Under the pieces are notes generated by a model. That model was given only the letters and a program-made list of their open reading frames with translations. It was not told the DNA's origin and did no database searches. A program made the position numbers and the translations under genes. A DNA stretch of 63,739 bases, filler included, from Globobulimina sp. (Eukaryota): NCBI GenBank assembly GCA_003354225.1. It is 22 parts of 22 records of this genome, joined end to end, with 100 filler letters (N's around TTAATTAATTAA, not from the genome) between each part and the next. Parts side by side here need not be neighbours in the genome. Positions count along the whole stretch, not along the records: positions 20,322 to 23,124 come from PIVH01004826.1; 21 more parts are not named here. One strand, 5' to 3'. This document shows positions 5,267-63,739 of the stretch, piece by piece; within the stretch, counting starts at the first letter, position 1; each line of letters begins with the position of its first letter.

Positions 5267-5706
<440 letters not shown>

Positions 5707-5806: not shown

Positions 5807-7286
5807 TTCAACCCGCACTTTGTGGACAAAAACCGGTGGCGAATTTATTCCTTCTTCGGCCTTAATCCATCATAAGTTATATAGCATCGACGTAGATAAA
5901 CATTGCGGTGTCTTACGTGGCTCTGTCCGCCAGGATTGGAATACCATCGAATGCGACGATGACGAGTATAAAAATTGGGAAGAGCTGAAACCACATTGGA
6001 GAGAATTATTTTTTGATCTCATGTTTGTAGCTGCCATTGTTCATATTTCCAGTGAGGTTGCCGCAGCTTATGACGATGGAGAATATATGTTCATTGTCAC
6101 TGTTTTCCCGCAGTTTGGCTTATTGATATTGTGCTGGTTGGAACAGGTGTTATATCACTCGCGTTTTAGGATGACTCAGACTGGCGACGCTTTCGTAGTA
6201 TTTATCTATATGTCTTTGGTGTTGATGATGGGGTTAAGTATCGGCAACTCATTAAGTTATCAAACATCGCAGAAACTGTTTCTCGTTTCCTATCTGTTTA
6301 CAAAGTTGATTATGTGTGTTATGTTTAGCAAATCGATGTTTATTCCACGGGCAAAAGCTCACTCTCTTTATATGATGATGCAGAATGTAGTGAGTATGAC
6401 AGCTGTGATATTTATTGAAATATTTGTCAATATTCCAGAGAATGAGTATGCAGAGAAACAATGGATTTGGGCTGTAATATATAGCGTTTTGTTCGTGTAT
6501 TCGTGGTTTCATGTTTGCGTCTTATTATATTCGCAATGTATACGCGATGCGGGTATTAATATACCGATAAATGTGCCACATATGGCAGAGAGAATGGGTG
6601 CCTTTGTCTTGATCATTTTGGGGGAAACCATTATTTCCATAATGGTGCAACACGTTGAATCTACCAAAGATGGCATAATTACGGCTTACAGTGTGACAAT
6701 GTCGTTGTTTGTCATTGTTTATTGTATCGGGAAACTATATTTTGAGTCTCAGCCAAGCGAACACGAAATACATCACCATAAGAAAGCGCATGCAATGTCG
6801 ACGTCTGTTTGGAGAGCGAGAATTTATAAATGGTTCCATATTTTGTTATTTTTTGGTTTGTTGGGGTTAGGTTTGGGCTCAAAAATAACTGTTCATCAAT
6901 TACATCATTACGAAGGGGATAAAGCAATTTATGTCTTTTTACCAGGGATATCATGTATCATTGTATGTTTTTGTATAAATATCATTCGATTGACGCATCC
7001 GTTTGATTATAGGAAGAAACATCGATGTTTTGTGATTGGTGTATGGCTCACCAGAATGGTATGCATTGTGGTGATGTTTGGAATATTGTTTAGTTGGAAG
7101 AGTGTGAATCATGCTGTTATCTTAGCGGTATATGTGGCAAGCTTTATTGTTCAAATATTTGTTGATTTTGAAGCGAAACACAGATTGATTCTGACAAAAG
7201 AAGCAGATAAAGATAAATCATTACATTATCATAACGCTACAAAGCCAGAGTGTAATCGTGTATTGTCTTTTATTGGCACCTTTTAA
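5807..7286 (+). CDS. Low temperature requirement protein A (LtrA) family multi-pass membrane protein, 5'-partial
   Basis: Family motifs W-x-ELFFDLMFVAA and HMAERMGAFVLIILGETI, with many hydrophobic helices. Confidence 0.85.
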
Positions 7287-8709: not shown

Positions 8710-11291
8710 TGGCAGCAACAGGAAATCATTTACATTGCGTTCATCTGTTTCCCATTGCAAAGAAACACAACTGGCTAAACAAAGAAACACTGCTCAAGCC
8801 ACAGCAACGCGAAGCATCCATACAACCGCCAATACGCCCAACGGAAAGCGCATCTCACTCCGAAATAAATTAGCGGATTTTGTAGATTTTCTGAAAGATG
8901 AATATCGTCGACTTACGCAGCCAGAAAATTATGATCCTTATGTCCAGGTTATGTTAAAACCAACTGTTGCTGGCATGGAACAAGCCTTTAAGACCTCTGT
9001 TATTTATGGTGGCGGCTCAAATGTGGCATGGAATGAAATTGCAGATGACAACCAATACACGTTTTTGTTACGCAATGACGCAGAAGCTTTAAACTCAAAA
9101 TATCTCAAAATTGAAGTATTTGATTATGAGAGTGGCTCAGCGGACAAATCTCTGGGTGTGGCGAGCATAGTTACCAATGGCTTACAACTAGGCATCCAAC
9201 ACTATGCAGTGCTGGATTTGTATGAAAATAGTATCGATACTGCTTATGCCTGGGCTGGAACTGTAGAAATCAGCGCAACGTTTAAGAAATTAACATTGTT
9301 TGAAGTGGAGGAGATCACTGCTAAAATAAATGAAGACATTGTAGGGAAATATGATGTAAATGTAACTCACGGCCATAATCACACGATGCAGAAGAGACGT
9401 ACGCGGAGCCGGGGTATGACTGATCAGTTAATTTTAGGTAGACATGGTACGCGCGGCAAATTGAATGAAGAGTTGCAGCAAAAAGAACAAAAACAGCACG
9501 ATGCGGAGGCTGAACATGTAGATTCTGTACGTGGCAGAGTTATAGATTTGGTTTTGTTTTTATCATTGGTGTTAAGTGGGACATTGTTTTTTGGTGCAAT
9601 GGATTTGCATGAAGTTGATTTGCAGACAATATTTTATCGCCAACATTATGGCACAACGTTTTCTGTGATTGATTCGTTGCATTGGTCGTTAGTCACAGCT
9701 TCGACCATTGGTTATGGCGACTTTTACCCACAGACTACCGGCGGGAAGATATTTGCTTCGTGTTTTATTGTGTTTGGCGTCTCGCTGTTGGGCCGATTGT
9801 TGAATTTTATTCTAGAATATGAAAACAATAAATTTGAACAGGAAAGCAAACGAAGAGCAACATTCAGAAAGTCAATGACATGGTACAGTAATATTTCTGT
9901 ATGCATTTGTTTCAAACAACATTTTATTGATTGTGTCCAAATTAAAAAGGGGTCAGATGGTTGAATGGGATCTGGATAATGATGGAAGCATTTCAGATTA
10001 TGAATTTTTGCGAGGAATGTTGCTACGAAGAGAGGATACAACGGAGGAATTTATAAATGAAATAATGAAAATATTTGATGAATATGATATTGATGGAAGT
10101 GGAGAAATTGAGATTGACGAATTAAAAGAAATTATGGCTCAGAAAGCACAGAAAATGCAGCAGCAAATTAAAGATGAAAAAACAAACAAAGACAAAGACA
10201 AAAATAATAAATACTGCAATTTTTGGTGTACATGTTTCAAAGCAAAAATGCAACCGGACAATGAAGAAACAGTTGAAGTTGAACTCGCAAAAGTGACTGG
10301 AAATGATGATAATATCTGCACTGATCACCATAAAATGGAGAACAATGAAGCTGGATTTTATACAGTGGATGAATTCGCAGACAATGAGCCATTTGAATAT
10401 GGACTGCTGCTGGAAATCCACGCTGTTGATAATTTAAAACAAGAACATGAAGAGTTTGAAGACAGTTTAAAATCATTTCTAAAAAGCATATTCGGCTTTG
10501 TTGCATATTTAATCTTCGCAGCAATGATATTTTCGTTGGTAGAGGATGCTGATTTTGGTGATATGTTATGGTTTTGTGTGGTGACAGCCTGTACGGTGGG
10601 TTATGGCGACCAACATCCTGCGTCTGCCCTTGGCAGAGTTTTAAATGCATTCTTTATCGGAAGCAGTGTGGTTTTGTTTGTAGGTTTTTTCGGGACTGCA
10701 TTTGATTTCATTTACAAACGTCAGGAATTGTTAATGAATAAGAAACAAAAAATAAAAAATGATGTCAATAAAATGATTGATAACTTTCATTTTGAAACAT
10801 TGAAAAGTGTGTTGCAAAAAGAGCATAAAAATGTGGAGGAGAGAAAAGATAATAAAACAAAAAAAGCAAATAAGAGCAGGTTGCAAGTGATATTGGATGA
10901 TGTTGGAGAAAAAGAAGATAATCACCAGATACTTTGGGATGTATTGAATTCTCCGTCGCCGAAAGAAAAGGTTGATTTGGGTAAGTTGAATACAATGAAA
11001 TCGAGTAGAAATTTGAATTTGTCCATTGGGGAAAATGAATTCGAAGTAGATGAGGATCACAATGAATATATGCCATCTGTGGAGACTGGTAATGATGAAA
11101 AGAAAGTATATATAAATGATAAATTGGATAATAAACAGAAAGCGAGTTTTTCTGATGATAATGTTGATGGCAATGAGGCAACAAATTTACTGGTAACAAC
11201 AATGGAGAGCATAATATCGGACAATGCTAAAACACAGAAAGGATATAAACCGGTCCAAACAAATGATAATGCGAATGAGTATATGGATTGA
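8710..11291 (+). CDS. Two-pore-domain K+ channel with N-terminal C2 domain and EF-hand pair; intron 9883-9949; probably 5'-partial
   Basis: Pore motifs TIGYGDFYP and TVGYGDQHP, each flanked by TM helices. C2 motifs DPYVQV...WNE...LKIEVFDYE...DKSLG. EF loops DLDNDGSISDYE and DIDGSGEIEIDE. Confidence 0.9.
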
Positions 11292-17418: not shown

Positions 17419-17896
17419 GATCTGGAGGGCTTTGCCCCTTTTCTCTCCGGCACCGTGGCCTTCATCGGAGACTTCGGATCCTCCTCTTCGAAGATCGGAG
17501 TGGTCAAATCCACCACTGCCTTCGGATTCGAGTCTTTTGGCTCTTTGGCCAAGCCACCATTCGTTGGAACATCACTTACTAAGGCATCAATAACCTCCTG
17601 TGAAAGTACCAAAAAATGACAATAGAAAAACGTTAGAAACGCTTTCCAAACACCAGCGAAAAGAGAGGAAAGGACAATAACCATCACAATGGAAATACCC
17701 CCCCTTTCCATAACGCTAGAACCGTGAAAGAGAATAGAAATGATAAGAAAAAAACGAACAAACCTTCTTTTTCGATTTCTTACCGTTCCGCTTCTTGTTC
17801 TTATTCTTGTCATTCTTGCTGATGTCAAGGAGATCGGATTCCAGGGCTGAATCATCTCCGTATGACACTTTCTTCTTGCATGTGCGCTCCGGCATA
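17419..17896 (-). CDS. Hypothetical K-rich protein fragment with one intron; composition differs from the rest of the contig
   Basis: Exon MPERTCKKKVSYG...KKSKKK, then a GT...TTTCACAG intron, then exon EVIDALVSDVPT... running off the contig. Confidence 0.3.
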
Positions 17897-18182
17897 ATGC
17901 GAGTGTTGGTGGACATAAGAAGCACGTAAGGTGTTCTGTATGACTAGACTGAGTGGGTAATCGAGGTATTACCTAAACTAAAAAATGCGAGAAACTTCGA
18001 GTTTTATCAGAAAAACCTCTTCGTTTCCGCATTACGTAAATATATTTAAAAACATTTGTTTGTCTAAAGAGAAACAGTGTTGTTTTTCATCTAAATTGTG
18101 CTGTATCCTCTCAACAAGCACCCACAAACATAAAATACAAACCCACAGACAACAACAAAAAATGGAAAAAAATGAAATAATT

Positions 18183-20221
18183 TTATAAACAAGAGACTTC
18201 CAAAGCATACACTCCATAACTTTGATCGCCATATCCACCCACTTCAATTGTAAATGTATTTCCTTCTATAAATTGCGCAAAATTATAATTAAAAACAATA
18301 GTCGATGCAACAGTATTATGCTCGCACGAAGAGTCATCGTCATTACTTACAATGAGAGTATTTCCCGCATCATAAAGATATAACATAGAATCCAATTGCA
18401 TAGTGTCAGCAGAACATGTCGTAAAGTTAACATTTGTAACACCTCCTGGTATATCAAAAGTATATGAATCCCTGAATCCAGCATTAATATTTCCTCGTCC
18501 CTGAATACCAGAACAATAAACGACACCTAAATCACTGACAGTAACCGACGTTGCTGTTGTCATTTGATTATAATTCGGAGCTGGACTGAACGCAGTACCG
18601 CTACAACCAAACGTAGCCCCTTCATCCTCGCAATATTCACAATCGCATACACCATCACAGGCATATTCCACCCAAAAACAACGTGTGCTTTCTCCGGGAC
18701 ATAACTCATAATCACACGGGTCAGAGAAACAATATCCTAAATCTTTGCAGACGCTCGAACCACTCGCATTGAATGCTCTGCCATACGTTTCACAATTTTT
18801 TTCCACTTCATCTGAGCCATCCGCACAGTCTTCAATATAATCACAAAGTGATTCTTGATATATACAAATACCAGAGGTTATACATTGAAATTCCGTGATC
18901 GCATCACACGTAAACAATAAACACAGCTCCTCATCCGATCCATCCTCGCAATCTCTTAAACCATCACAACGCCATTCATACGGTATACATTCACCTGAAC
19001 AACACATAATTACATTTACATACTTTGGTATACACAAAAACAAATTAAATTAACCTGTGTCCGCAGCAGTAATCAAACCAACTAAATATGTCAACGAAAG
19101 CTCTGAGTTCTGAGCTGTATCCAGGTACACTGTGGCAGTGCGATTCTTATACTCTCCAAAAGTAACAATATGCGTGTCATTAATCTGTGCAATTCTGCCG
19201 CCACATTGAAACACCTGTTGCCCCACTATCTCCTCAATGGCACACACATATTCACAGCCTTCCTCGTCTTGGCCGTCCGCACAATCTGCGATTCCATCAC
19301 ACAGTTTGTTCTTATTAATGCAAGCTCCGTTTATTTTGCACAGCGCCTCTGTCGATGCACAATGTCGCAGGCGAGAGTACGGACATCGCGACAAAAACAA
19401 TGGATGATTCACACTCTGATCAAAGGCCGGATACTCATCCGAGCCATCCACGCAGTCATTCGCCATCCCATCGCACGCATACTGCGCATCAATGCACTGT
19501 CCATTGTTGCATTTGAACTGCCCGCTCCACGTTGCATGCCATTCGTCGTCGGCCACCGTCACAGTTAAGCCCTCACCGCATTTCTTTTTGAATACAAACT
19601 CTGAGCAATTTGAGGCTCGCCCTTCATCCGAACCATCCACGCAATCAAGCTTACCGTCGCAACGTTTGCCAGTTTTCAGAAACGTGCCGGTACTCAAACA
19701 CATAAATGTGTCCGCCGGGTAATCAACGCCAGACTTGGCCGCAGCTAAAAATCCCGCATAATCACAGATATCGCCCTCATCGCTGCCATCGTCACAGTCT
19801 TCTATGCCATTACACACAAATCCTTTCCAAATGCAAGCAGCTCCACTGTTGCATTTGTACTCTGTGGTCAGACACGAACCGTCAGATATCACTGAGTCTG
19901 AGTTATAGCGGCAAGCCACAGCGTAACTGATAGTGAATGACAACACAATCCACAATATGACAGCGGATAATTTCTTTAACAGCGCAGTGCGTTTCCTGCG
20001 CGAAATGATGGCCATGGAAGCGAAGACCCGCTCATCCAAGTCATGCACGAACAAAATGCCGATGGCGCCAGAAATGGCATCGAATGAGTTTGGAGTATAA
20101 ATAGCGGTCAAAAAGCCGCAAAGCATCGCCGTAAATAGCTCTAATAAACAAAATGAGGAAGCTAACAGACCATACTTGCAAGTGCCTAATGCGTTGATCA
20201 CGTCAGCCCAAAGAAAGCCAA
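18183..20221 (-). CDS. Membrane protein with multiple LDL-receptor class A repeats and a C-terminal PPC-like beta domain; intron 18995-19054; 5'-partial
   Basis: Repeated C..F.C..G.CI....CDG..DC.DGSDE motifs (about 7, some degenerate) follow three hydrophobic helices. C-terminus DSMLYLYD...SNDD...TIEVGGY...GVYALEVSC. Confidence 0.85.
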
Positions 20222-20481
20222 NNNNNNNNNNNNNNNNNNNNNNNNNNNNNNNNNNNNNNNNNNNNTTAATTAATTAANNNNNNNNNNNNNNNNNNNNNNN
20301 NNNNNNNNNNNNNNNNNNNNNCAGTAAATTCAAATAACAGAAATTAGGATCACGAGCCGTATGCTGACGTATCTGATATATATATACGTATCTGACACGC
20401 TGTCCGTTAGCATACACGTCGTGGTCCACAAATTACAGAGTTTATATCCAAACGTTTTTGCAATTTTGTGTGATCGAACAG

Positions 20482-23124
20482 GTAGTTTCTGGGCTAATGC
20501 TAACTATGTTTTTGCCACTGGCGAAATGAATTTTGGTGATGGCGATTCCTCAGTTTATCCACTGACCGTTTTGGATATCATCGTTCATGGTATACACTAT
20601 ATTAATATATACATTTGTGAGTAGTATATTGTATACATTGTATACAGAAATAGCGCATGGTTATACCGATCAAGGAAGCGATTTAATTTATTCCGGAGAG
20701 AGTGGTGGTATGAATGAAGGTATTTTAACTCTCCTTAAATATCAAATATCTTTGTGAGATATTTGCACTTCGGACTAGGTTGTTTAATACTTATTTGTTT
20801 TTGTATAATTTTACAATTCTAAGCATTCTCCGACATCGCGGGAGTGGCCGGTGACTATTGGTTTTTTGGTAGAAACGATTGGGAACTCGGCAACGAAATT
20901 TTTAAATCTGATGAAGCATTGAGATATTTGCATGACCCACCTTTGGATGGTGTCTCTATTGATCATTACAGTAACTATTATGGGCAAAATGTGCACTATA
21001 CTTCAGGTACAGTTTACAGTATATTTCGTAGCATGTTTGTTCACGAAATTATCATTTTTGTGTGTTGTTACCTTTATATCCAGGTTTATACAATAAGGCA
21101 GCGTACAATTTGAATGCAAATGGGAATTGGACAATGGAGCAAATATTTCGAGTGTTTGCTTGGGCAAATTTATTTTATTGGACACCCGATAGTACATTTA
21201 ATGAAGGAATAAATGGATTACATCAAGCACTATTCGATATTTATGATGATAACACAACTGATGTTTTTGCAATGGTTGAAGCTTTAGACGATGCCTTCTT
21301 CGATGTTGGCTTAGCCCGCGTCAATGCTACAATCCCTGATCCTGTTTGTGGGTATAACAGATTTTGCCATTATCCAAATATTACTGGATCTCCGAATGCA
21401 ACCACGGTTCACACAGTACACATACAAGCTGATGATGACAGTGCCATCACCTATTTTGACATATATTTTACTGTGAAGGGTTACGATTGCATACGTCCCA
21501 CTTTATCATTTAGTTATGAATTAATAGATTATGATGCTTCTACTGAATACATTGATGTATGTTTGTGTATATATATATATAATTAATGTGTTTTTGCAAT
21601 CCTAACACATAAAAAAGGTGTTTGACAATGATGGTTTACTTATTAATCGATGTCAAGGTGGTTATTCATGTGGTACATTCGATTCACTTTGTATCAATAA
21701 TTATGATTTGGGTGTGTCCGGTGTTAAAATTGGCGAAACGTATAAAATTAGTGTTGTTGAATCGGCAGAGGTTGATGATTTATGTGGAACGGGACCTACA
21801 ATTAATGCATTTGTCACATTACAATGTCAATATGGCACATTACCGCCGACTACAGAGCCCACCTCGCAACCCACATTGGAGCCAACAGCACCTTCAAATC
21901 CCCCAACAACAGCACAGCCAACGCCAATTACACTAAATCCCACGCCATACCCAACCAACTTCAAAATCAATTGTGGTGTCAATACCTTCTGTTATATTGT
22001 CGATATATATCCCTCTCTCACGCAAAAAGTTGAAAATACGGTCATTATTCAAAATCCTGATGATTATTCAGGTATTTTATTCTTTTTATTCTCTTTTTAT
22101 TCTGTACTTCAATATAAATCACACACAGACACATATTTCAATGTGTTTTTTATTATTCATGGAAACGATTGTGTTTATCCACGAATCTCTTTTGAACACG
22201 AATTGGTTTGTTTTATATACGTTTTTCCATCGCAACCAACTAACAAACGTTTTTGAAACAGATTGATTATGATTCAACCTCCGAATATATTGATCTTTTT
22301 GATGACAATGATAATTTGATAATGCGATGTCAAGGAGCATTTATATGCAATGAGTTCTCGACTTGTATCAGTGATTATGATATTGGAGTGGATAAGATCA
22401 GTGCCGGCGGAGAACATTATAAAATAACAATATTGGAATCATATGCTGTCGATTCGCAATGTTATCCATTCCATACAAACTCAATCAATGCCAGATTAAA
22501 ATTTACATGCGATGCTGGCACAGTTAACCCAACCACCTCTCCAACAACAACACAACCAACACAAGCCACGGCAAATCCAACTCCAGCACCAACGAGTGAG
22601 GGTGAGGTCCGTTTAGTTGATGGTACGGCATCGAGCAATGGTCGGGTTGAAGTATTTCATAATGGAACGTGGGGAACAATTTGTGATGATTCATTTTTAA
22701 ATACTGATGCTGGAGTAGTTTGTCGTTCACTGGGTTGGGGAGATGGCACTGCATTATATACAACCGCTGTGGTTGACGGAATTGGCCAAATTTGGCTGGA
22801 TGAAATTACATGCATTGGAACAGAAGAAACAATCGGTGATTGTTACCATTTGCCATGGGGACAGCATAATTGTGCTCATTCGGAAGATGTCGGTGTTAGT
22901 TGTTATGGAACGCGGTCACCAACACAAACAACAAATGCTCCCACTACTTCTGCGCCTACACAAGTCACTAATGCACCAACACAATCACCAAAGGTAGCAT
23001 GTGGTACAAATAAATGGTGTTTTTACATCCCAGTTACTCCAAATCCACATAATGATACAGAATGGAATGTAGCAATACAGAATGAATACGTATATGGTGC
23101 CAGATATTTTGATATTTATTTTAT
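20482..23124 (+). CDS. M4 (thermolysin/elastase-type) zinc metalloprotease fused to Cys-containing repeat domains, PT linkers and an SRCR domain; introns 20590-20647, 20720-20823, 21007-21083, 21557-21617, 22072-22128, 22206-22261; partial at both ends
   Basis: Spliced translation: ANA...MNFGDGDSSVYPLTVLDIIV-HEIAH-GYT...LIYSGESGGMNEAFSDIAG...ALRYLHDP..DGVSIDH...VHYTSGLYNKAAY...ANLFYW. SRCR: VRLVDG...GRVEVFHNGTWGTICDD...GQIWLDEITC...HNCAHSEDVGVSC. Confidence 0.92.
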
Positions 23125-23224: not shown

Positions 23225-26026
23225 TACGAAGAATGAGAGAGAGAGAAAATATAAATTAGATAAAGCAGAGAAAGAAAGACTGAAAGAAGAAAAGAAAAAT
23301 CCAACCAGATTTCAACCTAAAAGGAAAGCCAAAACTAAAACGATAGAGGACAATCCAGAGGTATATAAAGAAAGTAAATATAAACCTAAAAATAACAATC
23401 CCAAAAGTAACGGTCTTTTGACTACAGTCAAGGAGACCGTACTTGAGGTTAATAAAACGACGGCCATCACGGCGGAAGAAACCAAGAAATCAATAGAAAA
23501 TATTAAAAAGAAAGCTGAGAAAATTAGTTATATTTCTGAAACTAATGATGATAAATATAAACCTCTGAGTCTTGACATAAAGTATACATTTCCATTGGAA
23601 GAAATAGCAGAAGAAAAGTTAGACGATATAGTAGATAATACAACGGATGTATGTACAAATGCAGTATGTACTACTGATATTATAAATGCTGGTAAACAGC
23701 TATTAGAAATCACTGAAAATAATAGAAAATCGTGGAATAAATATGCAGGAAATAGTGCTTTAAATAATGCTACAAATTCTGATGAAGTGCATAATTGTGA
23801 TTATAATGTGAATAACCTAAAAGATGCGTTAGAAAATTCCAATAATGACATATCAGAGAACTCTAAATGTGCACGTAGACAAAACGGTAAAACACCCGAG
23901 GCAATAAATAGTGGAGCCACTATATGTGGCTGTGTTTATAAAAGACAAAAGATGCCAAAATCAATAAAATGTCTTGCACGTGAACAATTAGATATAGAAA
24001 TACCGGTCAGGCCAGAGTTTATTAAAAGTCCATATGCACGTGAACACGCTGCTACAGAAAAACCGACCAGACCTGAGTATACTAGGAGTCCACGTGACAG
24101 AATATTGACAACATTAGACACTTGTCAAAATGTACATAACCTCCCGTTGTATAATATTGATATTGATAGAAAAAATATGTATACACAGACTATTCAATCA
24201 AGTTTTGAAATTTCTGGTACTCAAACTGACAGTATTGATAATAATATGGGTTTATATAGTATTACAAACCATGATAACATACGACATAATACAAAATCTC
24301 TAGATAGTATACGGTATGATGTGAAAACTCAAACATATCCAGAGATTACCATCCCTGCGGGTTTTACACACTGCCAGGACTACGTAGAAAAAAGTAAATT
24401 AAATGAGAATTACTTAACTGAAATAAATAAAATTGATACTGAATATGATTTAGAAATAGCAGAAGTACATAGAGATAAATTACAAATAAATTTAAATTAT
24501 TTATTGCTATTAATTAATAATTATAAAGATGGGCGCAGATTAAAAGTGCCAAAAAATTCTGATACTGCGGCGAATATCCGCGGTCAAAATGTTTACACGA
24601 CGAAAACTGAAGAAAACTACAGGACGTGTGATTTATCGGAAGAACCTGTGTCAACCCAGTCACAAGTGGATGAAAACATGGAAGAAAACAAGGAGATAAA
24701 GGACAGAAATGAAGATCAAACTCAAAAAGTAAGTAAAACCTTTAAATTCTTAAAATGTTTAGACAATAATATATGTGTAGATGATGAAGACGATATTACT
24801 ATAGTTAGAGAAGTATTAGGTATACAAACAGACATTATAGAAGATAAAATTGATAATAATGATGGGGATATCCAATCCTTGGGATCGAAAACCCCACCAT
24901 ATATGTATGAAAATTTAGAAAATGATAATATTATGTTACATGATTACAATAATATGGCTGGCCGATCTATAGAATCGGTACCCATGTTATTAAGTGATTT
25001 TGATAACATAGATGATAATAACGGGGTTATTCAATCATTGAGATTGGAAACCCTACCATATATGTATGAAAAATTAGAAAATGATAATATTATGCTACAT
25101 GATTACGATAATATGGCTGGCCGATCTATAGAACCGGTACCCATGTTATTAAGTGATTATGATCGTAATGATGATGCTATCCTATCTTTGGGAAGGGAAA
25201 CGTCATTAAATTATGATAAATATAATATTATAGACAATAAATATGTTCAAATGACCGTTACGGATCAGGAAGTAGAAAATGATAGTATGTATGGAGAAAA
25301 TTGGTATAAATTAGAAAATCCAATTTATTTAACGGATAAAACCAAAAATATATATTATAAAAATTTAGATACTATTTTGATAGAATCATTAGCTAACCTT
25401 AAAATATCTGAGAACTTAGAAAATATTAAACAAACACAAACCCCTATGATAGATAAAATGGCTATAGATAATAAGGAATACTGTAAAGATGTAGATGATA
25501 TTGCTACACATGATTATGATAATATGGTTGCCCCGTTTTCAGAACCGGAAACCATATTACCTAGTAATCATGATCATAATGATGGTGTTATCCAGTCTTT
25601 AGGACTGGAAACTTCAAATATGTATGACAAATATAACGTCACCGATAATATGATAGATAAAATGGCTATAGATAATAAGGAAGGAGATAAAATTGATATT
25701 GCTACACATGATTATGATAATATGGTTGACCCATTTTTAGACTCGTATAACCTGAAAGATGCGTCAGAAATTCCAAAATATGAACGTAGACAATGTGGTA
25801 AATCACCCGAGGCAAAAAATAACGACACCACTACATGCAGAGCGACATATAGAAGACAAAAATCAATAAAATGTCTAACCCCGGACATTGTAGATCTACC
25901 CGACAGACAAGAGTTCATTAGAACTCCGGCTGTACGCGTACGACATGATAGTATAAAAATGGACAGACGGGAACACATTAGAAGCCCGAGCGATAGAGAA
26001 TTGATATCAGAAATCTCTTGCCTTAC
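23225..26026 (+). CDS. Large intronless N/D/K-rich repetitive protein of unknown function, open across the whole contig
   Basis: Single open frame of more than 930 codons with internal tandem and dispersed peptide repeats; no catalytic motif recognised. Confidence 0.55.
24852..25760 (+). repeat. Coding tandem repeats (one 159-bp/53-aa period plus degenerate copies)
   Basis: CCATATATGTATGAAAA...GGCCGATCTATAGAA.CGGTACCCATGTTATTAAGTGATT begins at 24897 and again at 25056. ATGATAGATAAAATGGCTATAGATAATAAGGAA recurs near 25447 and 25650. Confidence 0.9.
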
Positions 26027-26126
26027 NNNNNNNNNNNNNNNNNNNNNNNNNNNNNNNNNNNNNNNNNNNNTTAATTAATTAANNNNNNNNNNNNNNNNNN
26101 NNNNNNNNNNNNNNNNNNNNNNNNNN

Positions 26127-46438: not shown

Positions 46439-49239
46439 ATTACTGGTTTGCAACAGAGCTAATTCGCCAATCATTATAAAACTCCTTCTTTTTTGCTTTA
46501 ATTTTTCAGGGTCGACATGTTGTGCTTTCGCTTTAGAGTCAATATGAGCCATTATCGCTTTTTTAATATTTTTATAGGAATCGCCCAAATATAAATTCTC
46601 CTCAACATGATCTAATGCGGATTTATTATCATTATCTTTTTTCTCAACCACCTCAATATCGTCATGACCCAACAATGCTTTTACAATTTTTGTTAAACCA
46701 TATCTTGCTGCAAACATCAACGTTGTTTTACCGCAATTATTGGCTATATTTACATTTATTTTCTTTGCTTTAATTAGTTGCAAAGCGATTTCTTGATGGC
46801 CATAGCGTGACGCATAAATAAGTGCAGTTTCTTTATGTAAACCGGCACAAATATTGGGATCTAATCTCTTTTTTTGCATTAAAATACGGACACAATCCAA
46901 TGACCCTTCGATCGTCGCATATAACAAAGCAGATATATTTTTTTTACATGTTGTGTTTATATACGAATTTATATGTTCATGCTTCATAAAAATATCAACC
47001 ACATTTACATTCTGATTCATACAGCTATGGATTAACGCAGTCTTACCTTCTCGGTCTTGTTTTGTGGCATCGACTTTTATTGTATTTAATAGCCATTCTG
47101 TAGTACTTGCATGGCCATTAATTGCTGTATACATTAAAAGCGTTTTCTCATTACTTAATACGTGATAGTTTTTATTTTTATTACCTCGATCTCGATCAAT
47201 ATAGCTCTTAATCCATAGCTGTGTATCATACGTTGTATTTAATACTTGCATTAAGACAATAACAAATTCCATATTGCCTCGCTTAATGGATCGAAAAAAT
47301 GTTTTTTTTAATAAATCCAATCGGTTGGCAGTTTTAAAGAATTCTAACATGATTCTTAAAACCTGGATATCTGATTGGATTATAAGTAAATCAATTACGT
47401 CCTGATTGGACATATTTTTACGTTGATCATAACCAAAAACATTTAAAATATATTGAATTATATGTCCATCGCCATGAAGATGGATAATTGCGACATGCAA
47501 TAAACTATTCCCGTCTTCATCGACGCAATTGGAGGGATCAAATATTAATCGATCCTGATTGGGCATCACGGCGCATGTCATTATAAATTGTAATAAATGT
47601 AAATATCCATTTTTTATGGTCTGAATGGCCACGTACTCTGACAATTGAGCTGTTGAATGTAACTGGAAGGCAGTTAACAAAATCTCTGAATCTGCTTTTT
47701 TTAATATCTTATGTTGCAATTTTTCAATAATTTCATATTCATTATTATTATCATTATCGTTGTCCTCTTCATAATAAAAAACTGGTATTCTTCTTTTAAT
47801 TATCTCTGCAAAAAACATTTGCATAAAATTAAAATCATTTAAGATCTCTAAAGGTGTACATTTTGCTGTTTTACTAAAATATTGAATACTGTCATAAATA
47901 CAGCCACTTTTTAATAAGGAAATAGCCGATCTTGTAATGGAAGTTGCAAATAACAAATACGGCGATGATAATAAAAAAAATAAAATGGAGAAAGTGCAAC
48001 AAAGTAAGCAAACAATCACAAATTGCATAAACACAAATGAATTTTTCAATTCATGTCGTAAAATTTGTGAGGTACACCATGGCGCACAAGCAATTATATA
48101 CGAACTATTTGATTCAACCACATCGGTTTTGCCGCCAAATATTTTGGGATTGATATAAACGATGTAAGTAATAAACAGCAACAAGAGCCAGGATTGCATG
48201 GTTCTTGCTAATACGGCGAGAAATGCGTATCGATGCACAATGCCCCGATCAAATATAAATTTTTGTATGCCACACCATGGTTTGATGTCGATTTTTTTAA
48301 CTTTCGGCGTATTGATTGTAAAATGCGGTGTTTCATTGTCATTTAATACATTTGTTGAACTCAAATTGGTATTTGTATTATTTGTATTAATCGCAGCAAG
48401 TGTTGGTTTATTTGTAATTGAATCTACAATTTCTATATTTAATACTGCCGGCGGTGATGCTTCGATGTTGATATTCAATGATTCTATTCCTTTTTCTTCC
48501 ATTTCTTGTTGTTCAAACTTTGGTCTTTCAGTAATTGTCATTGATTTATCGTATAATGATACACCGCGTGACATTGGAGTGGGATCACAACAAATATCTG
48601 GGAAATCAAACTGCGTATTATCAGTAGTATTATTCTGCTGAACAGGCGTTCCATTCCTTGTGGAACACTGCGATCTCATATTAACGGGTGTATTTAATGC
48701 GGATTTATTTGTAAATAATTTTTTTAATCTATCGGCTTCATTCATATTTAAACCAGCTAATGCTAATAAAGCAGCAGTATGCAATTCATTGGGCACAAAT
48801 GGGGTGACATTACCAGATGGAGTATCCGTTGTATCTATTGTATCTGTTGTTGCTTCTGCTGACATATCATACGACATCATAGACATCATCTGATATGGTA
48901 TTAATTTGGGTGTTTCGCTGTTTTTAGTCTTTGACATTTCAAATGATTTCTCAATGGCCATATTTCTTCTGACTGCTACTAAATCCTTTTCTTTTGCTAT
49001 ATTTCCTAGCAAAGTGGCTAAAGTTGGAGTGTTATCTCCGGATTTAATACCATTACTGGCTGAAAATTCAAACGATTTTTGAATTGCCATATTTCTGGCT
49101 GGCAACACCTGCACATCGCCAGACTTTATCTCATCCGTATTCTCTTCATCTGGATCACTGTGACTATGAGTACTGCTGTCCAGGCTTTCACTCTTTGAAA
49201 ATTCAAATGATTTGTCAATGGCCATATTTCTTCTGGTTG
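46439..49239 (-). CDS. Ankyrin-repeat membrane protein, open across the whole contig
   Basis: GNSLLHVA, KTLLMYTA, GKTALIHS, ISALLYAT, ETALIYASRYGH, GKTTLMFAARYG, KSALD. A hydrophobic cluster lies N-terminal of the repeats. Confidence 0.9.
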
Positions 49240-60939: not shown

Positions 60940-63739
60940 TCACCATTATTGGTCACCGAATAAGCGCCTTCTTTATCTTTGTCATTGTTTGACAATAAAT
61001 TATTAATAAATGTGCGCGTACTTTCAAATGATTTATTAATTAAAAATTGCAAAATATCGGTTTGAAATTGTGTATCTGTCAATTTATCAAATATTTTATC
61101 ATTGGTTACCATATTCATCAAAGATTTAATGATATCCCATCTTAATTTATGATTTGAGCCCACAATCACGGTCAAAAAATCCCAAATATCATATGTATCG
61201 TCGACAAACTCCATAAAAAATCTCATATTATCAATGGTTGCCTGAATAAATTCTATCTGTGTCAGTGATAACAATCGATATATTTTATCCTCTTCCTTGA
61301 CATTTTGCAATATCTTATTTTCTTTATCCGCAATATATGAGATCATATCTAATATTTCATTCAATGACAATATCTCTGTCGAGACTGTTTGTAAAGGGAT
61401 AATTTTTGCAAATTTCATAAATATTTGAAACGTATACAATCGTAATTTAACCATATTTTCCATGCCAGCCTCAAATTTATTATCTTGATATTTGTGAATG
61501 TATTCAACAATTTTGTTGTGTGCAAAAAGAATTAATTTCTGCGCAGCATTCAGGGACTCAATAATTTCATTATGACTAAGACAATGTAATCGTTTCACAA
61601 ATTTTAAAATCGCATCAAATCCAGAACCTAAATTGTATGTTTCCTGCGTTTGTGATTTGGCACCAAATGCTTCATTTGCTATAGACATCGAAGGTGACAT
61701 TGTTTCAGACACATTGGAAACATTCGAAACATTGGACTTTTGCCGATATTTTCGTTTCTTTTTATACGTCGGTGCCACTTTAGAAGCTACAAATTGTATT
61801 TCTTCATTCTCCGACGTTTTATGTTCCATTCCATCCAAATCTAAATCCTGTTTATTTGCATTATTCATTTCAATCAAAAACGTATGATCCATTTCATACG
61901 CAGTTAAACGAGCTAATTGTTCCAAAATCGTAGTGATTCCACAATTCAATGTCACTAATTCTGCCTCGTCTGCTTGCGTTTTCTCTTCTTTTTCTTCTTG
62001 TTTTTTCTCTTCAAACATAAACACAGGCTGTACATCCAAAATATCCTCCAACTTCCGGATGGGTTTCGGCAAACATTTGATTTGGTCAATGATCATAAAT
62101 GAAGGATCATAACACCACAAACAATGATTCACAAAATCATAGCAAACGCCACCACTCATCACGTCCATCAATGTCACACCAAATGCTTTGGTCACGGGCA
62201 ACAACGGATTCTTACGATGAATAATGGGCTGATAATCAATATGATAAATATTTGGCTGTATTATATTAATGACATCGCCATGGCCATTATTATTATTATT
62301 TAAATACTTATTGATATCCGTTATGGGGTACACCGCCAAATGTATTTTAACCCCGCAAGTTTGGTTCGAGATCCATTGAATAATAATATTGTTCCCCGTC
62401 GAATAGAAATCATAAGACGACGACTGATTTTTATATTGATTCCCAATGGGAGCACACCGAAAATAGCCAATACTCTCAACATCTTTATTGAAAATAAACA
62501 CTTTAAATTGCGACTTTACCAGTGTCAATTGACTGATTTGTCTGCTTATAATGCCGCCGCCCTTTTGGTCAATACTGCCAATAATCCCACCCGACTCTCG
62601 CCCGCCGACCGCACGCGATTTGTTCATTTGAATCCGGGCATCATATTTGGAGCACCATTCGTCATAACGAGAGGACCAGCCATCATAATTTATGCGTATA
62701 CGGTCCGAAGTGGAATCAATGTCAATTATAGTGGCAAAATACCATTTATGTACACTGTCCAAGGCATCCACTTTGCTATTAACCACCAACTCTTCCCTCC
62801 ATTTCTCAGATTCATTCAAATGGCCATCTTTCAACCGCTCATCCAAGAAATGTTCTAATTTGTGCAGATATTCTGTATTGACGCAGACGCAGTCATATTG
62901 ATCTTTATTTTTTGGCGCTGGGATTTGATGGCTGCCGCAGTCACAAAACATCGCCTCGTTGGCACGCGGCAACGTGGCGGATAACACCGTTTTTTTGTAG
63001 CCTAATGATTCTGAGCCAGCCTCTCTGTAACAGCGATTGGAGCAGGCAGCGCAAATAAAATATTTCTTGTCAGCGCCATACAATGTGACTTGCGTCCAAC
63101 GTTGCGGTACGGTCCTTTTTCCGGTGATACTGTAGGAACAAATCCCTTGCCGAGTGGCCAATTTATGCTTACAGATGACCGGGGAATGCAAACCTAATAA
63201 ATACTCATCATTTCCATTGTTATACGAGGTGATTCTGTCAATGTCCGCCACCCAGACCCCGTTATTTGAGATGTTTATCAATTTGCTGCATGGCACCAGA
63301 GTGTCCGTATTGATTTTCACCATCAAATTGTTCAACATTTCGCGTGAGCGGAATAACAATTCGTGCTTGAAAAATGTTAACGAGGTCACCATGATATCTT
63401 TGGATGGGTTTTGGGAGTGCGATTGATATGTTTTTGAAACGTTCCCTCCGTAATATCTCTGTCCATATTTCTCAAATGAATTTATTTGCGCGTTGCCCAA
63501 ACCTTTCTGGTCAGATAACAAACCCGGCGGCGATATGATGCGTAAGAACTGTTTGGTAAATTTGTGATTGACCACATAGACTTTGCCCTGAATGGTGCCG
63601 TTGTATCCCGTGCCAATCTTAAACAGACCAAACTTGCGATGGTAAATATACAAATAAGTGCCATCGGAGGTGATATTGGAATAAATAATATTCCTCCACG
63701 CATCCATGCAGTGCAAATACAATGCTTGTGCTTCCACGT
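60940..63739 (-). CDS. Fragment of a very large protein (MYCBP2/HECTD4-like E3 ligase) with a degenerate UBR-type zinc finger and a Tudor/MBT-like domain
   Basis: ITSDGTYLY...GLFKIGTGYNGTIQGKVY; CSYSITG...Q.W...ICAACSNRC...FCDCGS; KVDALD....WY.ATI......IRINYDGWSSRYDEW. Open across the whole contig. Confidence 0.65.

What the first reader, a model, noticed from the sequence alone, without database searches (positions are those of the whole stretch)
20482..21330. Bacterial-type M4 elastase/thermolysin gene carrying spliceosomal introns, one inside the HExxH zinc motif
Seen in sequence: the catalytic Glu codon of HEIAH is interrupted by a 58-nt intron (G|AA). Two more introns fall in NE|AFSD and VHYTS|G. 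All key residues (HExxH, GxxNExxSD, the stabilising His of VH) are intact after splicing. Established: M4 proteases are typical secreted bacterial enzymes, and the C-terminal ANLFYW pattern resembles LasB/vibriolysin. Inference: a horizontally acquired, domesticated protease in a protist; the introns exclude bacterial contamination.
Basis: partly seen in the sequence, partly recalled or inferred. Interest (0 to 1): 0.75.

Follow-up and report, generated by a model that had tools for sequence, protein, structure and literature searches.

The report
Intron-bearing bacterial-type protease gene in a protist
A short contig from a foraminifer-like protist carries part of a real, spliced gene for a zinc protease of a type otherwise almost confined to bacteria, joined to extra protein modules, and it belongs to a large family of such genes in foraminifera.

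Summary
Window 20482-21330 encodes the C-terminal ~200 residues of an M4 (vibriolysin/pseudolysin-type) zinc peptidase. It is interrupted by GT..AG introns of 58, 104 and 77 nt, the first inside the Glu codon of HEIAH. Contigs of three runs from two studies other than the likely source skip exactly these introns and two more downstream. The source-like DNA run reads through them.

The window is 22 unrelated ~2.8-kb contigs joined by N linkers, so the gene is cut at both contig ends (20322, 23124). It has at least 7 exons and a 742-aa open spliced frame. This frame holds the M4 domain, two and a half copies of an unnamed ~140-aa beta-sandwich repeat, PT linkers and an SRCR domain.

The nearest relatives (60-79% identity) are transcripts labelled Bolivina argentea and Nonionella stella, where the family is expanded. 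The nearest bacteria (marine Gamma- and Betaproteobacteria) reach about 50%.

The foraminiferal sequences form one supported clade. Nesting of that clade inside the bacteria is not statistically shown (AU p 0.48). Bacterial origin is therefore likely, from the distribution, but it is not proven, and no donor is resolved.

The parts
20322..20481 (+). 3' end of an upstream intron; the contig starts here, so the 5' exons (signal peptide, propeptide, first ~100 residues of the catalytic domain) are missing. Acceptor AG at 20480-20481.
   Evidence: N linker ends at 20321. An X5 contig has a loose end before 20481 that reads the upstream exon (...FIPMRLYMHV), colinear with P0004.
20482..20589 (+). 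Exon: end of the Peptidase_M4 N-terminal lobe. His codon of HExxH at 20586-20588; first base of the catalytic Glu codon at 20589.
   Evidence: (PF01447 positions 105-137 of 145).
20590..20647 (+). Intron 1: 58 nt, GT..AG, phase 1, inside the Glu codon of HEIAH.
   Evidence: Skipped by 1 contig each of X5, X6 and X7; not skipped in X1.
20648..20719 (+). Exon: rest of HEIAH (second His 20656-20658), the LIY Tyr, and GGMNE (third zinc ligand Glu 20716-20718).
20720..20823 (+). Intron 2: 104 nt, GT..AG, phase 1 (NE|AFSD).
   Evidence: Skipped by contigs of X5, X6 and X7.
20824..21006 (+). Exon: Peptidase_M4_C positions 16-87. Holds AFSD, ALRY, SIDHY and VHYTS (catalytic His codon 20994-20996).
   Evidence: PF02868, 1.4e-07, 32.0 bits, above the 24.4 cut-off.
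21007..21083 (+). Intron 3: 77 nt, GT..AG, phase 1 (VHYTS|G).
   Evidence: Skipped by contigs of X5, X6 and X7.
21084..21556 (+). Exon: end of Peptidase_M4_C (to about 21335, with the ANLFYWT motif), then the first half of beta-sandwich repeat 1.
21557..21617 (+). Intron 4: 61 nt, GT..AG, phase 0. Inferred only from colinearity with transcripts.
   Evidence: tblastn of P0001 and P0003 breaks at 21559/21615. Read laying skipped this TA-rich stretch, so no read evidence either way.
21618..22071 (+). Exon: second half of repeat 1, Pro/Thr-rich linker, start of repeat 2.
22072..22128 (+). Intron 5: 57 nt, GT..AG, phase 1.
   Evidence: Skipped by contigs of X5 (2), X6 (1) and X7 (1).
22129..22205 (+). 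Exon: middle of repeat 2.
22206..22261 (+). Intron 6: 56 nt, GT..AG, phase 0.
   Evidence: Skipped by contigs of X5 (2), X6 (2) and X7 (1).
22262..23124 (+). Exon, open to the contig end: rest of repeat 2, PT linker, SRCR domain (about 22619-22903), PT linker, first 41 residues of repeat 3.
   Evidence: PF00530, 6.7e-28, 97.4 bits. The frame is open to 23124.

Best explanation
The contig at 20322-23124 holds the middle of a nuclear gene of a foraminifer-like protist. The gene encodes a secreted or surface-bound zinc endopeptidase of MEROPS family M4, vibriolysin/pseudolysin subfamily.

Shown:
- The pre-mRNA loses at least five short GT..AG introns, and a sixth is inferred.
- The spliced frame is open for 742 residues.
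- All catalytic and zinc-binding motifs are intact.
- The protease is fused to two or more copies of a ~140-aa all-beta (jelly-roll) repeat, to Pro/Thr linkers and to an SRCR domain.
- The gene belongs to an expanded family in foraminiferal transcriptomes.

Inferred:
- The protein is made as a prepro-enzyme, because full-length homologues start with a signal-peptide-like segment and a weak FTP propeptide match.
- It is exported, and cuts peptide bonds by the thermolysin mechanism: zinc held by His, His and Glu, water activated by the HExxH Glu, transition state stabilised by Tyr and His.
- It uses its beta-sandwich and SRCR modules to bind prey, matrix or cell surface.
- The family descends from a bacterial vibriolysin-type gene taken up by an ancestor of these foraminifera (about 0.7), possibly by way of another eukaryote, and gained all its introns and eukaryotic modules afterwards.
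For: Gene model and splicing:
- Gene model.
- Contigs of X5, X6 and X7 (two studies other than the likely source) skip five of the six introns. X1 reads through them.
- X5 contigs are near-identical to the window, for example 1 other letter in 242.
- Exon GC is 39.1% against 25.9% for the introns.

Family membership:
- Pfam M4 and M4_C hits are colinear.
- The spliced product scores 276 bits against the mature-domain HMM.
- The motifs are intact.
- The best PDB matches are 7ecc, Mcp02 and pseudolysin.

Relatives:
- 4 of 4 significant hits to exon 4 come from EukProt.
- All 17 EukProt proteins looked up are labelled Bolivina argentea or Nonionella stella.
- Identity of the window's peptidase domain is 79% to P0004, 73% to P0001 and 66% to P0003. 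The best unlabelled or bacterial rows reach 50-52%.

Tree:
- The 14 labelled foraminiferal rows form one clan. Support is SH-aLRT 97 in the quick C20 tree, and 99/81 in the careful LG+G4 tree, present in 100% of 200 bootstrap trees.

Bacterial affinity:
- In one search, 115 of the 120 listed hits are not EukProt, and every organism-named one is bacterial.
- 599 of 620 pattern matches in GTDB genomes encode relatives.

Export:
- 12 of 12 full-length N-termini inspected are hydrophobic and signal-like.
- Several C-termini have a hydrophobic stretch followed by a basic tail.

Modules:
- SRCR.
- Repeat copy counts.
- Repeat fold.
Against: - Nesting within bacteria is not supported. Backbone UFBoot values are 9-65. 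The AU test gives p 0.48 for the tree that keeps all 64 other ingroup rows together. A sister relationship to the sampled bacterial group is therefore as acceptable as nesting.
- The rows nearest the clade (P0225, P0267, P0256, P0244) and two rows inside it (P0166, P0252) have no organism label.
- Other eukaryotic M4 sequences could not be sampled, because only the best 120 or 150 hits are listed.
- The run kinds are '?' or 'RNA? (a guess)', so splicing rests on contigs, not on raw stranded reads.
- The foraminiferal label rests on two transcriptomes that are not independent. P0003 and P0005 differ at 1 of 1343 residues.
- The 5' third of the gene, the protein's end, enzymatic activity and localisation are not seen.
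- The FTP match in homologues is below the cut-off (20.1 against 21).
Confidence: 0.75

Rival explanations
1. The gene is an old, vertically inherited eukaryotic M4 lineage that most eukaryotes have lost. It is not a transfer from bacteria.
For: - The AU test does not reject the foraminiferal clade lying outside all sampled bacterial vibriolysin-type rows (p 0.48).
- The clade has long internal branches and many paralogues.
- Unlabelled, eukaryote-looking rows (P0131 from MMETSP, P0166, P0252) join it.
Against: - Identity to proteobacterial enzymes is 45-52%. That is high for a split older than eukaryotes.
- All 17 EukProt proteins looked up from three searches of 5.8 and 1.84 billion proteins came from the same two foraminiferal data sets.
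- One family member keeps a weak bacterial PPC domain (P0130).
- The family is described as almost exclusively bacterial (PMC7851659 abstract).
Confidence: 0.1
2. The foraminifera got the gene from another eukaryote that already carried an intron-bearing, bacterial-derived M4 gene (eukaryote-to-eukaryote transfer).
For: - The MMETSP transcript P0131 is sister to the foraminiferal clan (100/94).
- A preprint on Rhizaria reports that eukaryote-derived transfers dominate in this group (10.1101/2023.01.27.525846; passages read).
Against: - The organism of P0131 is unknown and may itself be a foraminifer.
- No other labelled eukaryote appeared in any search.
- The preprint's main text does not contain 'peptidase', 'protease', 'thermolysin' or 'metallo'. 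Its supplements were not open to me.
Confidence: 0.1
3. The contig and the matching transcripts come from another eukaryote that lives with or is eaten by foraminifera, not from the foraminifer itself.
For: - The same 1343-aa protein (1 difference) occurs in the data sets of two species. That points to carry-over between libraries or to a shared third organism.
- The window is a set of short, unlinked contigs.
Against: - The family is large and deep in the Bolivina data: 14 of the 17 EukProt proteins looked up.
- Spliced contigs stand at word depths of tens to hundreds in three runs listed under two further organism labels.
- Other pieces of the window carry ordinary eukaryotic genes at similar GC.
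Confidence: 0.08
4. This is bacterial contamination or an assembly chimera, and the apparent introns are chance.
For: The catalytic domain is of bacterial type.
Against: - Six GT..AG interruptions restore one open 742-aa frame.
- Five are skipped exactly in contigs of three runs.
- The same frame runs on into an SRCR domain.
- No bacterial locus exceeds 42% identity by tblastn.
Confidence: 0.01

Closest known systems
Vibriolysin / pseudolysin (LasB) / Mcp02 group of MEROPS family M4 (Pseudoalteromonas, Vibrio, Pseudomonas; PDB 7ecc, 3nqx, 1ezm)
   Same: - Same catalytic domain and motifs: HExxH, GGxNEAFSD, ALRY, DH...VHxxSG, ANxxYWT.
- The homologue P0004 matches these chains at E 1e-58 to 7.5e-65 over the whole mature domain.
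- Full-length relatives have a propeptide region in front.
   Different: - The gene is eukaryotic, with spliceosomal introns.
- Identity is only about 45-52%.
- The ENAFW segment is changed to ANANY/F with a two-residue insertion.
- The C-terminal PPC/PKD domains of the bacterial enzymes are replaced by a different ~140-aa repeat, PT linkers and SRCR.
Thermolysin / bacillolysin / aureolysin branch of M4
   Same: Same fold family and catalytic mechanism. Pfam Peptidase_M4 and Peptidase_M4_C both match.
   Different: Much more distant: PDB E-values are 1e-13 to 4e-24, against 1e-58 or better for the pseudolysin group.
Legionella ProA (NCBIfam NF045902; PDB 6ya1)
   Same: The only NCBIfam model with a strong match: 205.5 bits for P0004 and 46.1 bits for the window's 60-aa exon. 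PDB 6ya1 matches at 2.3e-51.
   Different: The score is far below the equivalog cut-off (205.5 against 900), so this is not a ProA orthologue.
Bacterial-type genes with introns in foraminifera (NirK of the denitrification pathway, PMC6783311) and intron gain after transfer of a bacterial alpha-amylase to Basidiomycetes (PMC3584928)
   Same: A bacterial-type enzyme gene sits in a eukaryotic genome with canonical splice sites and with paralogous clades. PMC6783311: passages read. PMC3584928: title and start of abstract only.
   Different: - The enzyme class is different.
- Here the gene family is larger and has been fused to new extracellular modules.
- No paper found links M4 peptidases to foraminifera.
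CUB, PPC and P-domain type beta-sandwich modules of secreted proteases
   Same: - The repeat is predicted to be an all-beta sandwich (pLDDT about 80-90 over residues 70-216 of P0002).
- The best Foldseek matches are tandem-CUB proteins (E about 1e-6).
- VIA Z is 7.3-8.0 to CUB, the ColG collagen-binding domain and the Kex2 P-domain.
   Different: - No Pfam match to CUB, PPC or any other family.
- Z values of 7-9.4 are spread over many unrelated beta-sandwiches (BcsB, SID1, Cry11), so only the general fold is shared.
- The Atlas gave nothing above 0.76.

Membership tests
MEROPS M4 / Pfam Peptidase_M4 + Peptidase_M4_C | HExxH zinc-binding and catalytic motif | tested here: met
   HEIAH after removal of intron 1. 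His codons are at 20586-20588 and 20656-20658. The Glu codon is split across 20589 and 20648-20649.
MEROPS M4 / Pfam Peptidase_M4 + Peptidase_M4_C | Third zinc ligand Glu in the NExxSD segment about 20 residues after HExxH | tested here: met
   GGMNEAFSD restored by removal of intron 2 and aligned to the bacterial enzymes. The role of this residue is recalled from knowledge of thermolysin, not tested.
MEROPS M4 / Pfam Peptidase_M4 + Peptidase_M4_C | Transition-state residues: Tyr in LIY, Asp-His in DH, and the catalytic His in VHxxSG | tested here: met
   LIYSG, SIDHY and VHYTSG are present and aligned. The residue roles are recalled.
MEROPS M4 / Pfam Peptidase_M4 + Peptidase_M4_C | Pfam models matched above their gathering scores | tested here: met
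   Window exon 3 scores 32.0 bits against the 24.4 cut-off for PF02868. The other exon pieces fall below their cut-offs because they are fragments, but they are colinear. The homologues P0003, P0001 and P0004 pass both PF01447 and PF02868.
MEROPS M4 / Pfam Peptidase_M4 + Peptidase_M4_C | Whole catalytic domain, with the N-terminal lobe and an FTP/PepSY propeptide | tested here: inconclusive
   The contig starts at 20322, so the window lacks these parts. In the homologues the FTP match is weak: 20.1 and 16.7 bits against a cut-off of 21.
MEROPS M4 / Pfam Peptidase_M4 + Peptidase_M4_C | Zinc-dependent endopeptidase activity | not testable with these tools
   Needs expression and an enzyme assay.
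Vibriolysin/pseudolysin subfamily of M4 | Closer to pseudolysin, vibriolysin and Mcp02 than to thermolysin | tested here: met
   PDB E-values are 7.5e-65 to 1e-58 against 4e-24 to 1e-13. In the trees it falls with vibriolysin-type rows and is separated from the divergent Lysobacter M4 paralogues by a 100/100 branch.
Vibriolysin/pseudolysin subfamily of M4 | C-terminal PPC (pre-peptidase) domains, as in many vibriolysins | tested here: not met
   No PPC match in the window's product, nor in P0001, P0002 or P0003. Only P0130 has a weak match (30.2 bits). This feature is common in the subfamily but does not define it.
Legionella ProA equivalog (NCBIfam NF045902) | Score above the equivalog cut-off | tested here: not met
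   205.5 bits against a cut-off of 900.
SRCR domain (PF00530) | Pfam match above the gathering score | tested here: met
   97.4 bits against 26.1, E 6.7e-28, profile positions 2-99 of 100.
CUB domain | Sequence match to the family, or a fold match that stands clearly above others | tested here: inconclusive
   No Pfam hit. Foldseek ranks tandem-CUB proteins first (E about 1e-6). VIA Z for CUB (7.3-7.4) lies below several unrelated beta-sandwiches.
Gene acquired by horizontal transfer from bacteria | Recipient clade nested, with support, inside a donor clade | tested here: inconclusive
   The topology is nested but weakly supported. AU p is 0.48 for the non-nested alternative.
Gene acquired by horizontal transfer from bacteria | Patchy distribution in eukaryotes against wide distribution in bacteria | tested here: inconclusive
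   All 17 EukProt proteins looked up are from two foraminiferal data sets, with one further MMETSP transcript. Named hits are otherwise bacterial. Only the top 120 to 150 hits are visible, so more distant eukaryotic M4 genes were not surveyed.
Gene acquired by horizontal transfer from bacteria | Integrated in the eukaryotic genome: introns, eukaryotic domains, expression | tested here: met
   Six introns, five of them skipped in transcript-like contigs. In-frame SRCR domain.

The most novel reading that the evidence does not exclude
Foraminifera captured one bacterial vibriolysin-type gene early in their history. From it they built a large family of modular secreted or membrane-anchored ecto-proteases. 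These carry a lineage-specific ~140-aa beta-sandwich module repeated up to 11 times, and sometimes SRCR or PPC-like domains. The family serves as a main extracellular tool of the reticulopodial network for digesting prey or remodelling the organic matrix.
Probability: 0.3. Interest if true: 0.6.

Novelty: new variant of a known kind. Interest (0 to 1): 0.45.

Why it matters
M4 peptidases are textbook secreted bacterial enzymes and virulence factors. One review-type paper calls the family 'known almost exclusively from bacteria' (PMC7851659 abstract).

Here a member is shown to be a spliced eukaryotic gene. It belongs to an expanded family in foraminifera and is joined to an undescribed repeat module and an SRCR domain. 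I found no paper that links foraminifera with this family.

If the bacterial origin holds, this is a clear case of a transferred gene that afterwards gained introns (at least six), paralogues and eukaryotic domains. It also names candidate enzymes for extracellular digestion in an ecologically important but genomically poorly known protist group.

Transfer of bacterial enzymes to protists with later intron gain is itself well known, so this is an addition to a known theme, not a surprise of principle.

Tried and rejected
- **Whole-genome search:** none is held for this window.
- **Rfam on the window:** 0 matches, so no rRNA or tRNA to name the organism.
- **RNA runs:** no RNA holder is listed as such for the contig. 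X6 and X7 are only guessed to be RNA.
- **Intron 4:** could not be tested with reads, because read laying skipped the TA-rich stretch 21551-21593.
- **Labels for rows next to the clade:** a profile search (A2) was meant to reveal the sources of P0131, P0166, P0225, P0256 and P0244. Only P0267 and its neighbours came up (ENA, one 242,907-base contig). The rest of the 120 rows were bacterial vibriolysins, so those rows stay unlabelled.
- **Careful site-heterogeneous tree (LG+C20 PMSF):** not finished after 864 s. I report the quick C20 tree and a careful LG+G4 tree whose bootstrap had not fully settled (correlation 0.948).
- **Other genomic copies:** two scans of JGI metagenome contigs found 111 and 65 pattern matches, but none was a relative. 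A first alignment was too loosely conserved to scan with.
- **ESM Atlas for the repeat:** the best feature score was 0.76, to a PT-repeat cluster, which is not meaningful.
- **Fold search for the repeat:** only generic beta-sandwich similarity, so no family is assigned.
- **NCBIfam:** gave only a sub-threshold ProA match.
- **Bacterial contamination:** considered and rejected (see rivals).
- **Neighbouring LDL-receptor-A gene (17419-20221, minus strand):** considered and rejected as genomic context, because it lies on another contig.
Full report
**What the window is.** N runs of 44 bases flank TTAATTAATTAA every 2903 bases. The window is therefore 22 separate contigs of about 2.8 kb, joined by 100-base linkers. 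The finding lies on the contig 20322-23124. Sequence on either side, including the LDL-receptor-A gene upstream on the minus strand, is not its genomic context. No whole genome is held, and Rfam found nothing in the window.

**The observation.** Read directly and by script, the frame entering at 20482 reads ...VLDIIVH and stops being M4-like at 20589.
- A GT..AG interval of 58 nt (20590-20647) splits the Glu codon of HEIAH as G|AA.
- A second interval of 104 nt (20720-20823) splits NE|AFSD.
- A third interval of 77 nt (21007-21083) splits VHYTS|G.
- Unspliced, each frame hits a stop inside the interval.

The exon translations hit Peptidase_M4 (profile positions 105-137 of 145) and Peptidase_M4_C (1-14, 16-87, 90-161 of 165) in order. 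The spliced product aligns without gaps across the three junctions to transcript-derived homologues and to bacterial vibriolysins. HEIAH, LIY, GGMNEAFSD, ALRY, SIDHY and VHYTSG are all intact.

**Transcript-level evidence.** One search for sequencing runs listed 9 runs, of which 7 hold part of the contig, from 3 studies. I laid X1 (the best holder, possibly the source), X5 (a second study) and X6/X7 (a third study, 'RNA?' by guess) at 85% likeness.
- Contigs of X5, X6 and X7 join 20589|20648, 20719|20824, 21006|21084, 22071|22129 and 22205|22262. Each join skips a GT..AG interval of 58, 104, 77, 57 or 56 nt.
- X1 shows none of these joints. One of its contigs runs unbroken from 20566 to 21136.
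- An X5 contig that ends at 20481 continues upstream with letters that translate to the preceding exon of the homologues. The AG at 20480-20481 is therefore a real acceptor.
- X5 pieces are almost identical to the window, for example 1 other letter in 242.

Caveats: these are assembled contigs, not raw reads, and the run kinds are not on record. A sixth interval (21557-21617, 61 nt) lies in a TA-rich stretch that the tool skipped. It rests only on colinearity with P0001 and P0003.

**The whole gene on the contig.** Seven exons (20482-20589, 20648-20719, 20824-21006, 21084-21556, 21618-22071, 22129-22205, 22262-23124) give one open frame of 742 residues that runs off the contig end. Exon GC is 39.1% and intron GC is 25.9%.
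- The peptidase domain ends near 21335.
- It is followed by two full copies and one started copy of a ~140-residue Cys-containing repeat (spliced residues 209-348, 397-538, 702-742).
- Pro/Thr-rich linkers and an SRCR domain follow (PF00530, 97.4 bits).
- The 5' part of the gene is absent from the window: tblastn with P0004 finds only residues 307-470.

**Relatives.** Exon 4 found 4 proteins at E <= 0.001 among 163 candidates, all from EukProt.
- Exact look-ups label them Bolivina argentea and Nonionella stella.
- A search with the catalytic part of P0004 gave 595 proteins at E <= 0.001 among 892 candidates. Of the 120 listed, 5 are EukProt (all Bolivina). The rest come from genome and metagenome sources, and every organism-named one is bacterial: Pseudoalteromonas, Colwellia, Thalassotalea, Vibrio, Collimonas, Massilia and others, at 43-49% identity.
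- The exhaustive representative search gave 7822 proteins at E <= 0.001. Of the 10 best new rows looked up, 8 are Bolivina or Nonionella, 1 is an MMETSP transcript, and 1 is an unlabelled protein with CARDB domains.

The family is therefore expanded in these data sets. I used 14 labelled rows, counting the window.

One caution: P0003 (Nonionella) and P0005 (Bolivina) differ at 1 of 1343 residues. The two transcriptomes are therefore not independent witnesses.

The domain-level identity of the window's product is 79% to P0004, 73% to P0001, 66% to P0003 and 60% to P0007. The best non-foraminiferal rows reach 50-52%.

**Subfamily.** Against solved structures, P0004 matches 7ecc, Mcp02 and pseudolysin at 7.5e-65 to 1e-58, Legionella ProA at 2.3e-51, and thermolysin, bacillolysin and aureolysin only at 4e-24 to 1e-13. 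NCBIfam gives only a ProA match far below its cut-off. This is a vibriolysin/pseudolysin-type M4 peptidase and not an orthologue of any named enzyme.

**Phylogeny.**
- Named bacterial sequences: I took 79 bacterial loci from GTDB genomes (599 of 620 pattern matches encode relatives, at 33-42% identity by tblastn).
- Outgroup: four divergent M4 paralogues of one Lysobacter genome.
- Row selection: from 350 domain segments I kept 86 rows. I dropped near-duplicates (loci at 78% identity or more, unlabelled proteins at 62% or more), and also P0005, P0272 and the short P0128.
- Quick LG+C20 tree: the 14 labelled foraminiferal rows are one clan (SH-aLRT 97), with two unlabelled rows (P0166, P0252) inside. 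The MMETSP row is sister (96).
- Careful LG+G4 tree: support is 99/81 for the clan, 100/94 with P0131 added, and 96/94 with the unlabelled P0225 added. Its bootstrap had not fully settled.
- Deeper nodes: rooted on the outgroup, the clade lies several nodes inside the bacterial radiation, but those nodes have UFBoot 9-65.
- AU test: it does not reject the tree in which the other 64 ingroup rows are held together (log-likelihood difference 1.86, p 0.48).

The data show one eukaryotic clade within the vibriolysin type. They show neither its nesting nor a donor.

**Origin.** A bacterial origin is still the better reading, at about 0.7.
- The family is overwhelmingly bacterial (PMC7851659 abstract).
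- The only labelled eukaryotes found are these foraminifera.
- Identity to proteobacterial enzymes is about 50%.
- One paralogue keeps a weak PPC match.

If this is right, all introns, the repeat module and the SRCR fusion were gained after the transfer. Precedents are the intron-bearing bacterial-type NirK of foraminifera (PMC6783311, passages) and intron gain in a transferred alpha-amylase (PMC3584928, listing only). Vertical descent with wide loss, or arrival through another eukaryote, is not excluded.

**How it probably works.**
- All 12 full-length N-termini inspected begin with a short hydrophobic, signal-like segment.
- Several relatives end in a hydrophobic stretch plus a basic tail.
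- The FTP propeptide match is weak.

The inferred product is an exported prepro-enzyme. Its catalytic domain uses the thermolysin mechanism. Its C-terminal modules tether it or target it.

The repeat occurs 11 times in P0129, 4 in P0003, 3 in P0001 and P0126, 2 in P0127, and once in P0008 and P0133. It has no Pfam match and no Atlas neighbour. Folded within P0002 with a 10-row alignment (mean pLDDT 76, about 80-90 over the repeat), it is an all-beta sandwich. Foldseek ranks tandem-CUB proteins first (E about 1e-6). VIA Z values of 7-9.4 spread over many beta-sandwich families, so only the general fold can be claimed.

**Literature.**
- No paper holds foraminifera, horizontal gene transfer and metalloprotease together.
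- One unrelated paper holds foraminifer and thermolysin.
- None of the 15 listed papers in a six-term search contains 'foraminifera'.
- The Rhizaria transfer preprint and the Bolivina/Nonionella transcriptome paper do not mention peptidases or proteases in their main texts. Their supplements were not seen.

**Verdict.** It is a new eukaryotic, modular variant of a well-known enzyme family, of moderate interest.

Noticed in passing
window 1-63739: The window is 22 contigs of 2800-2803 bases joined by 100-base linkers (N44 + TTAATTAATTAA + N44) every ~2903 bases. Features in different pieces are not neighbours in the genome. Piece GC ranges from 26% to 43%.
   Followed up: yes
window 17419-20221, minus strand (ORFs 18186-19049 and 19053-20219): A separate contig encodes a Cys-rich protein with several LDL-receptor class A repeats (PF00057, 65 and 108 bits). 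Its C-terminal ~135 residues resemble the C-terminal domain of the foraminiferal M4 protein P0007 (29% identity, pairwise E 4e-08). This suggests a second module shared among secreted proteins of this organism.
   Followed up: partly
P0003 and P0005 (EukProt proteins): The 1343-aa M4 protein filed under Nonionella stella and the one filed under Bolivina argentea differ at 1 residue. This suggests carry-over between the two transcriptomes, or a shared third organism.
   Followed up: partly
window 5808-7283, plus strand: An uninterrupted 492-aa frame matches the bacterial LtrA family (PF06772, 118 bits). It is either another bacterial-type gene in this genome or a bacterial contig in the assembly.
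   Followed up: no
window 5267-5704, plus strand: An actin N-terminal fragment (PF00022, 168 bits) lies at the end of a contig. It could be used to place the organism.
   Followed up: no
window 8711-11288, plus strand: Two overlapping frames carry potassium-channel pore domains (Ion_trans_2) with a C2 domain and EF-hands. This is probably one intron-split channel gene.
   Followed up: no
window 23226-26027 (+), 46439-49237 (-), 60942-63737 (-): Three contigs are each a single open frame from end to end (934, 933 and 932 aa). Only the middle one has a Pfam match, to ankyrin repeats. The others are long exons of unknown proteins.
   Followed up: no
P0131, P0166, P0127, P0132 (relatives): Several family members end in a hydrophobic segment followed by a Lys/Arg-rich tail. 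This suggests type I membrane-anchored M4 ecto-proteases, an arrangement I do not know from the bacterial enzymes (recalled, not searched).
   Followed up: no
P0267, P0273, P0274 (ENA metagenome proteins): Three M4 paralogues close to the foraminiferal clade are all listed with the same longest contig, of 242,907 bases. The organism is unknown. Its identity would bear on the donor question.
   Followed up: no
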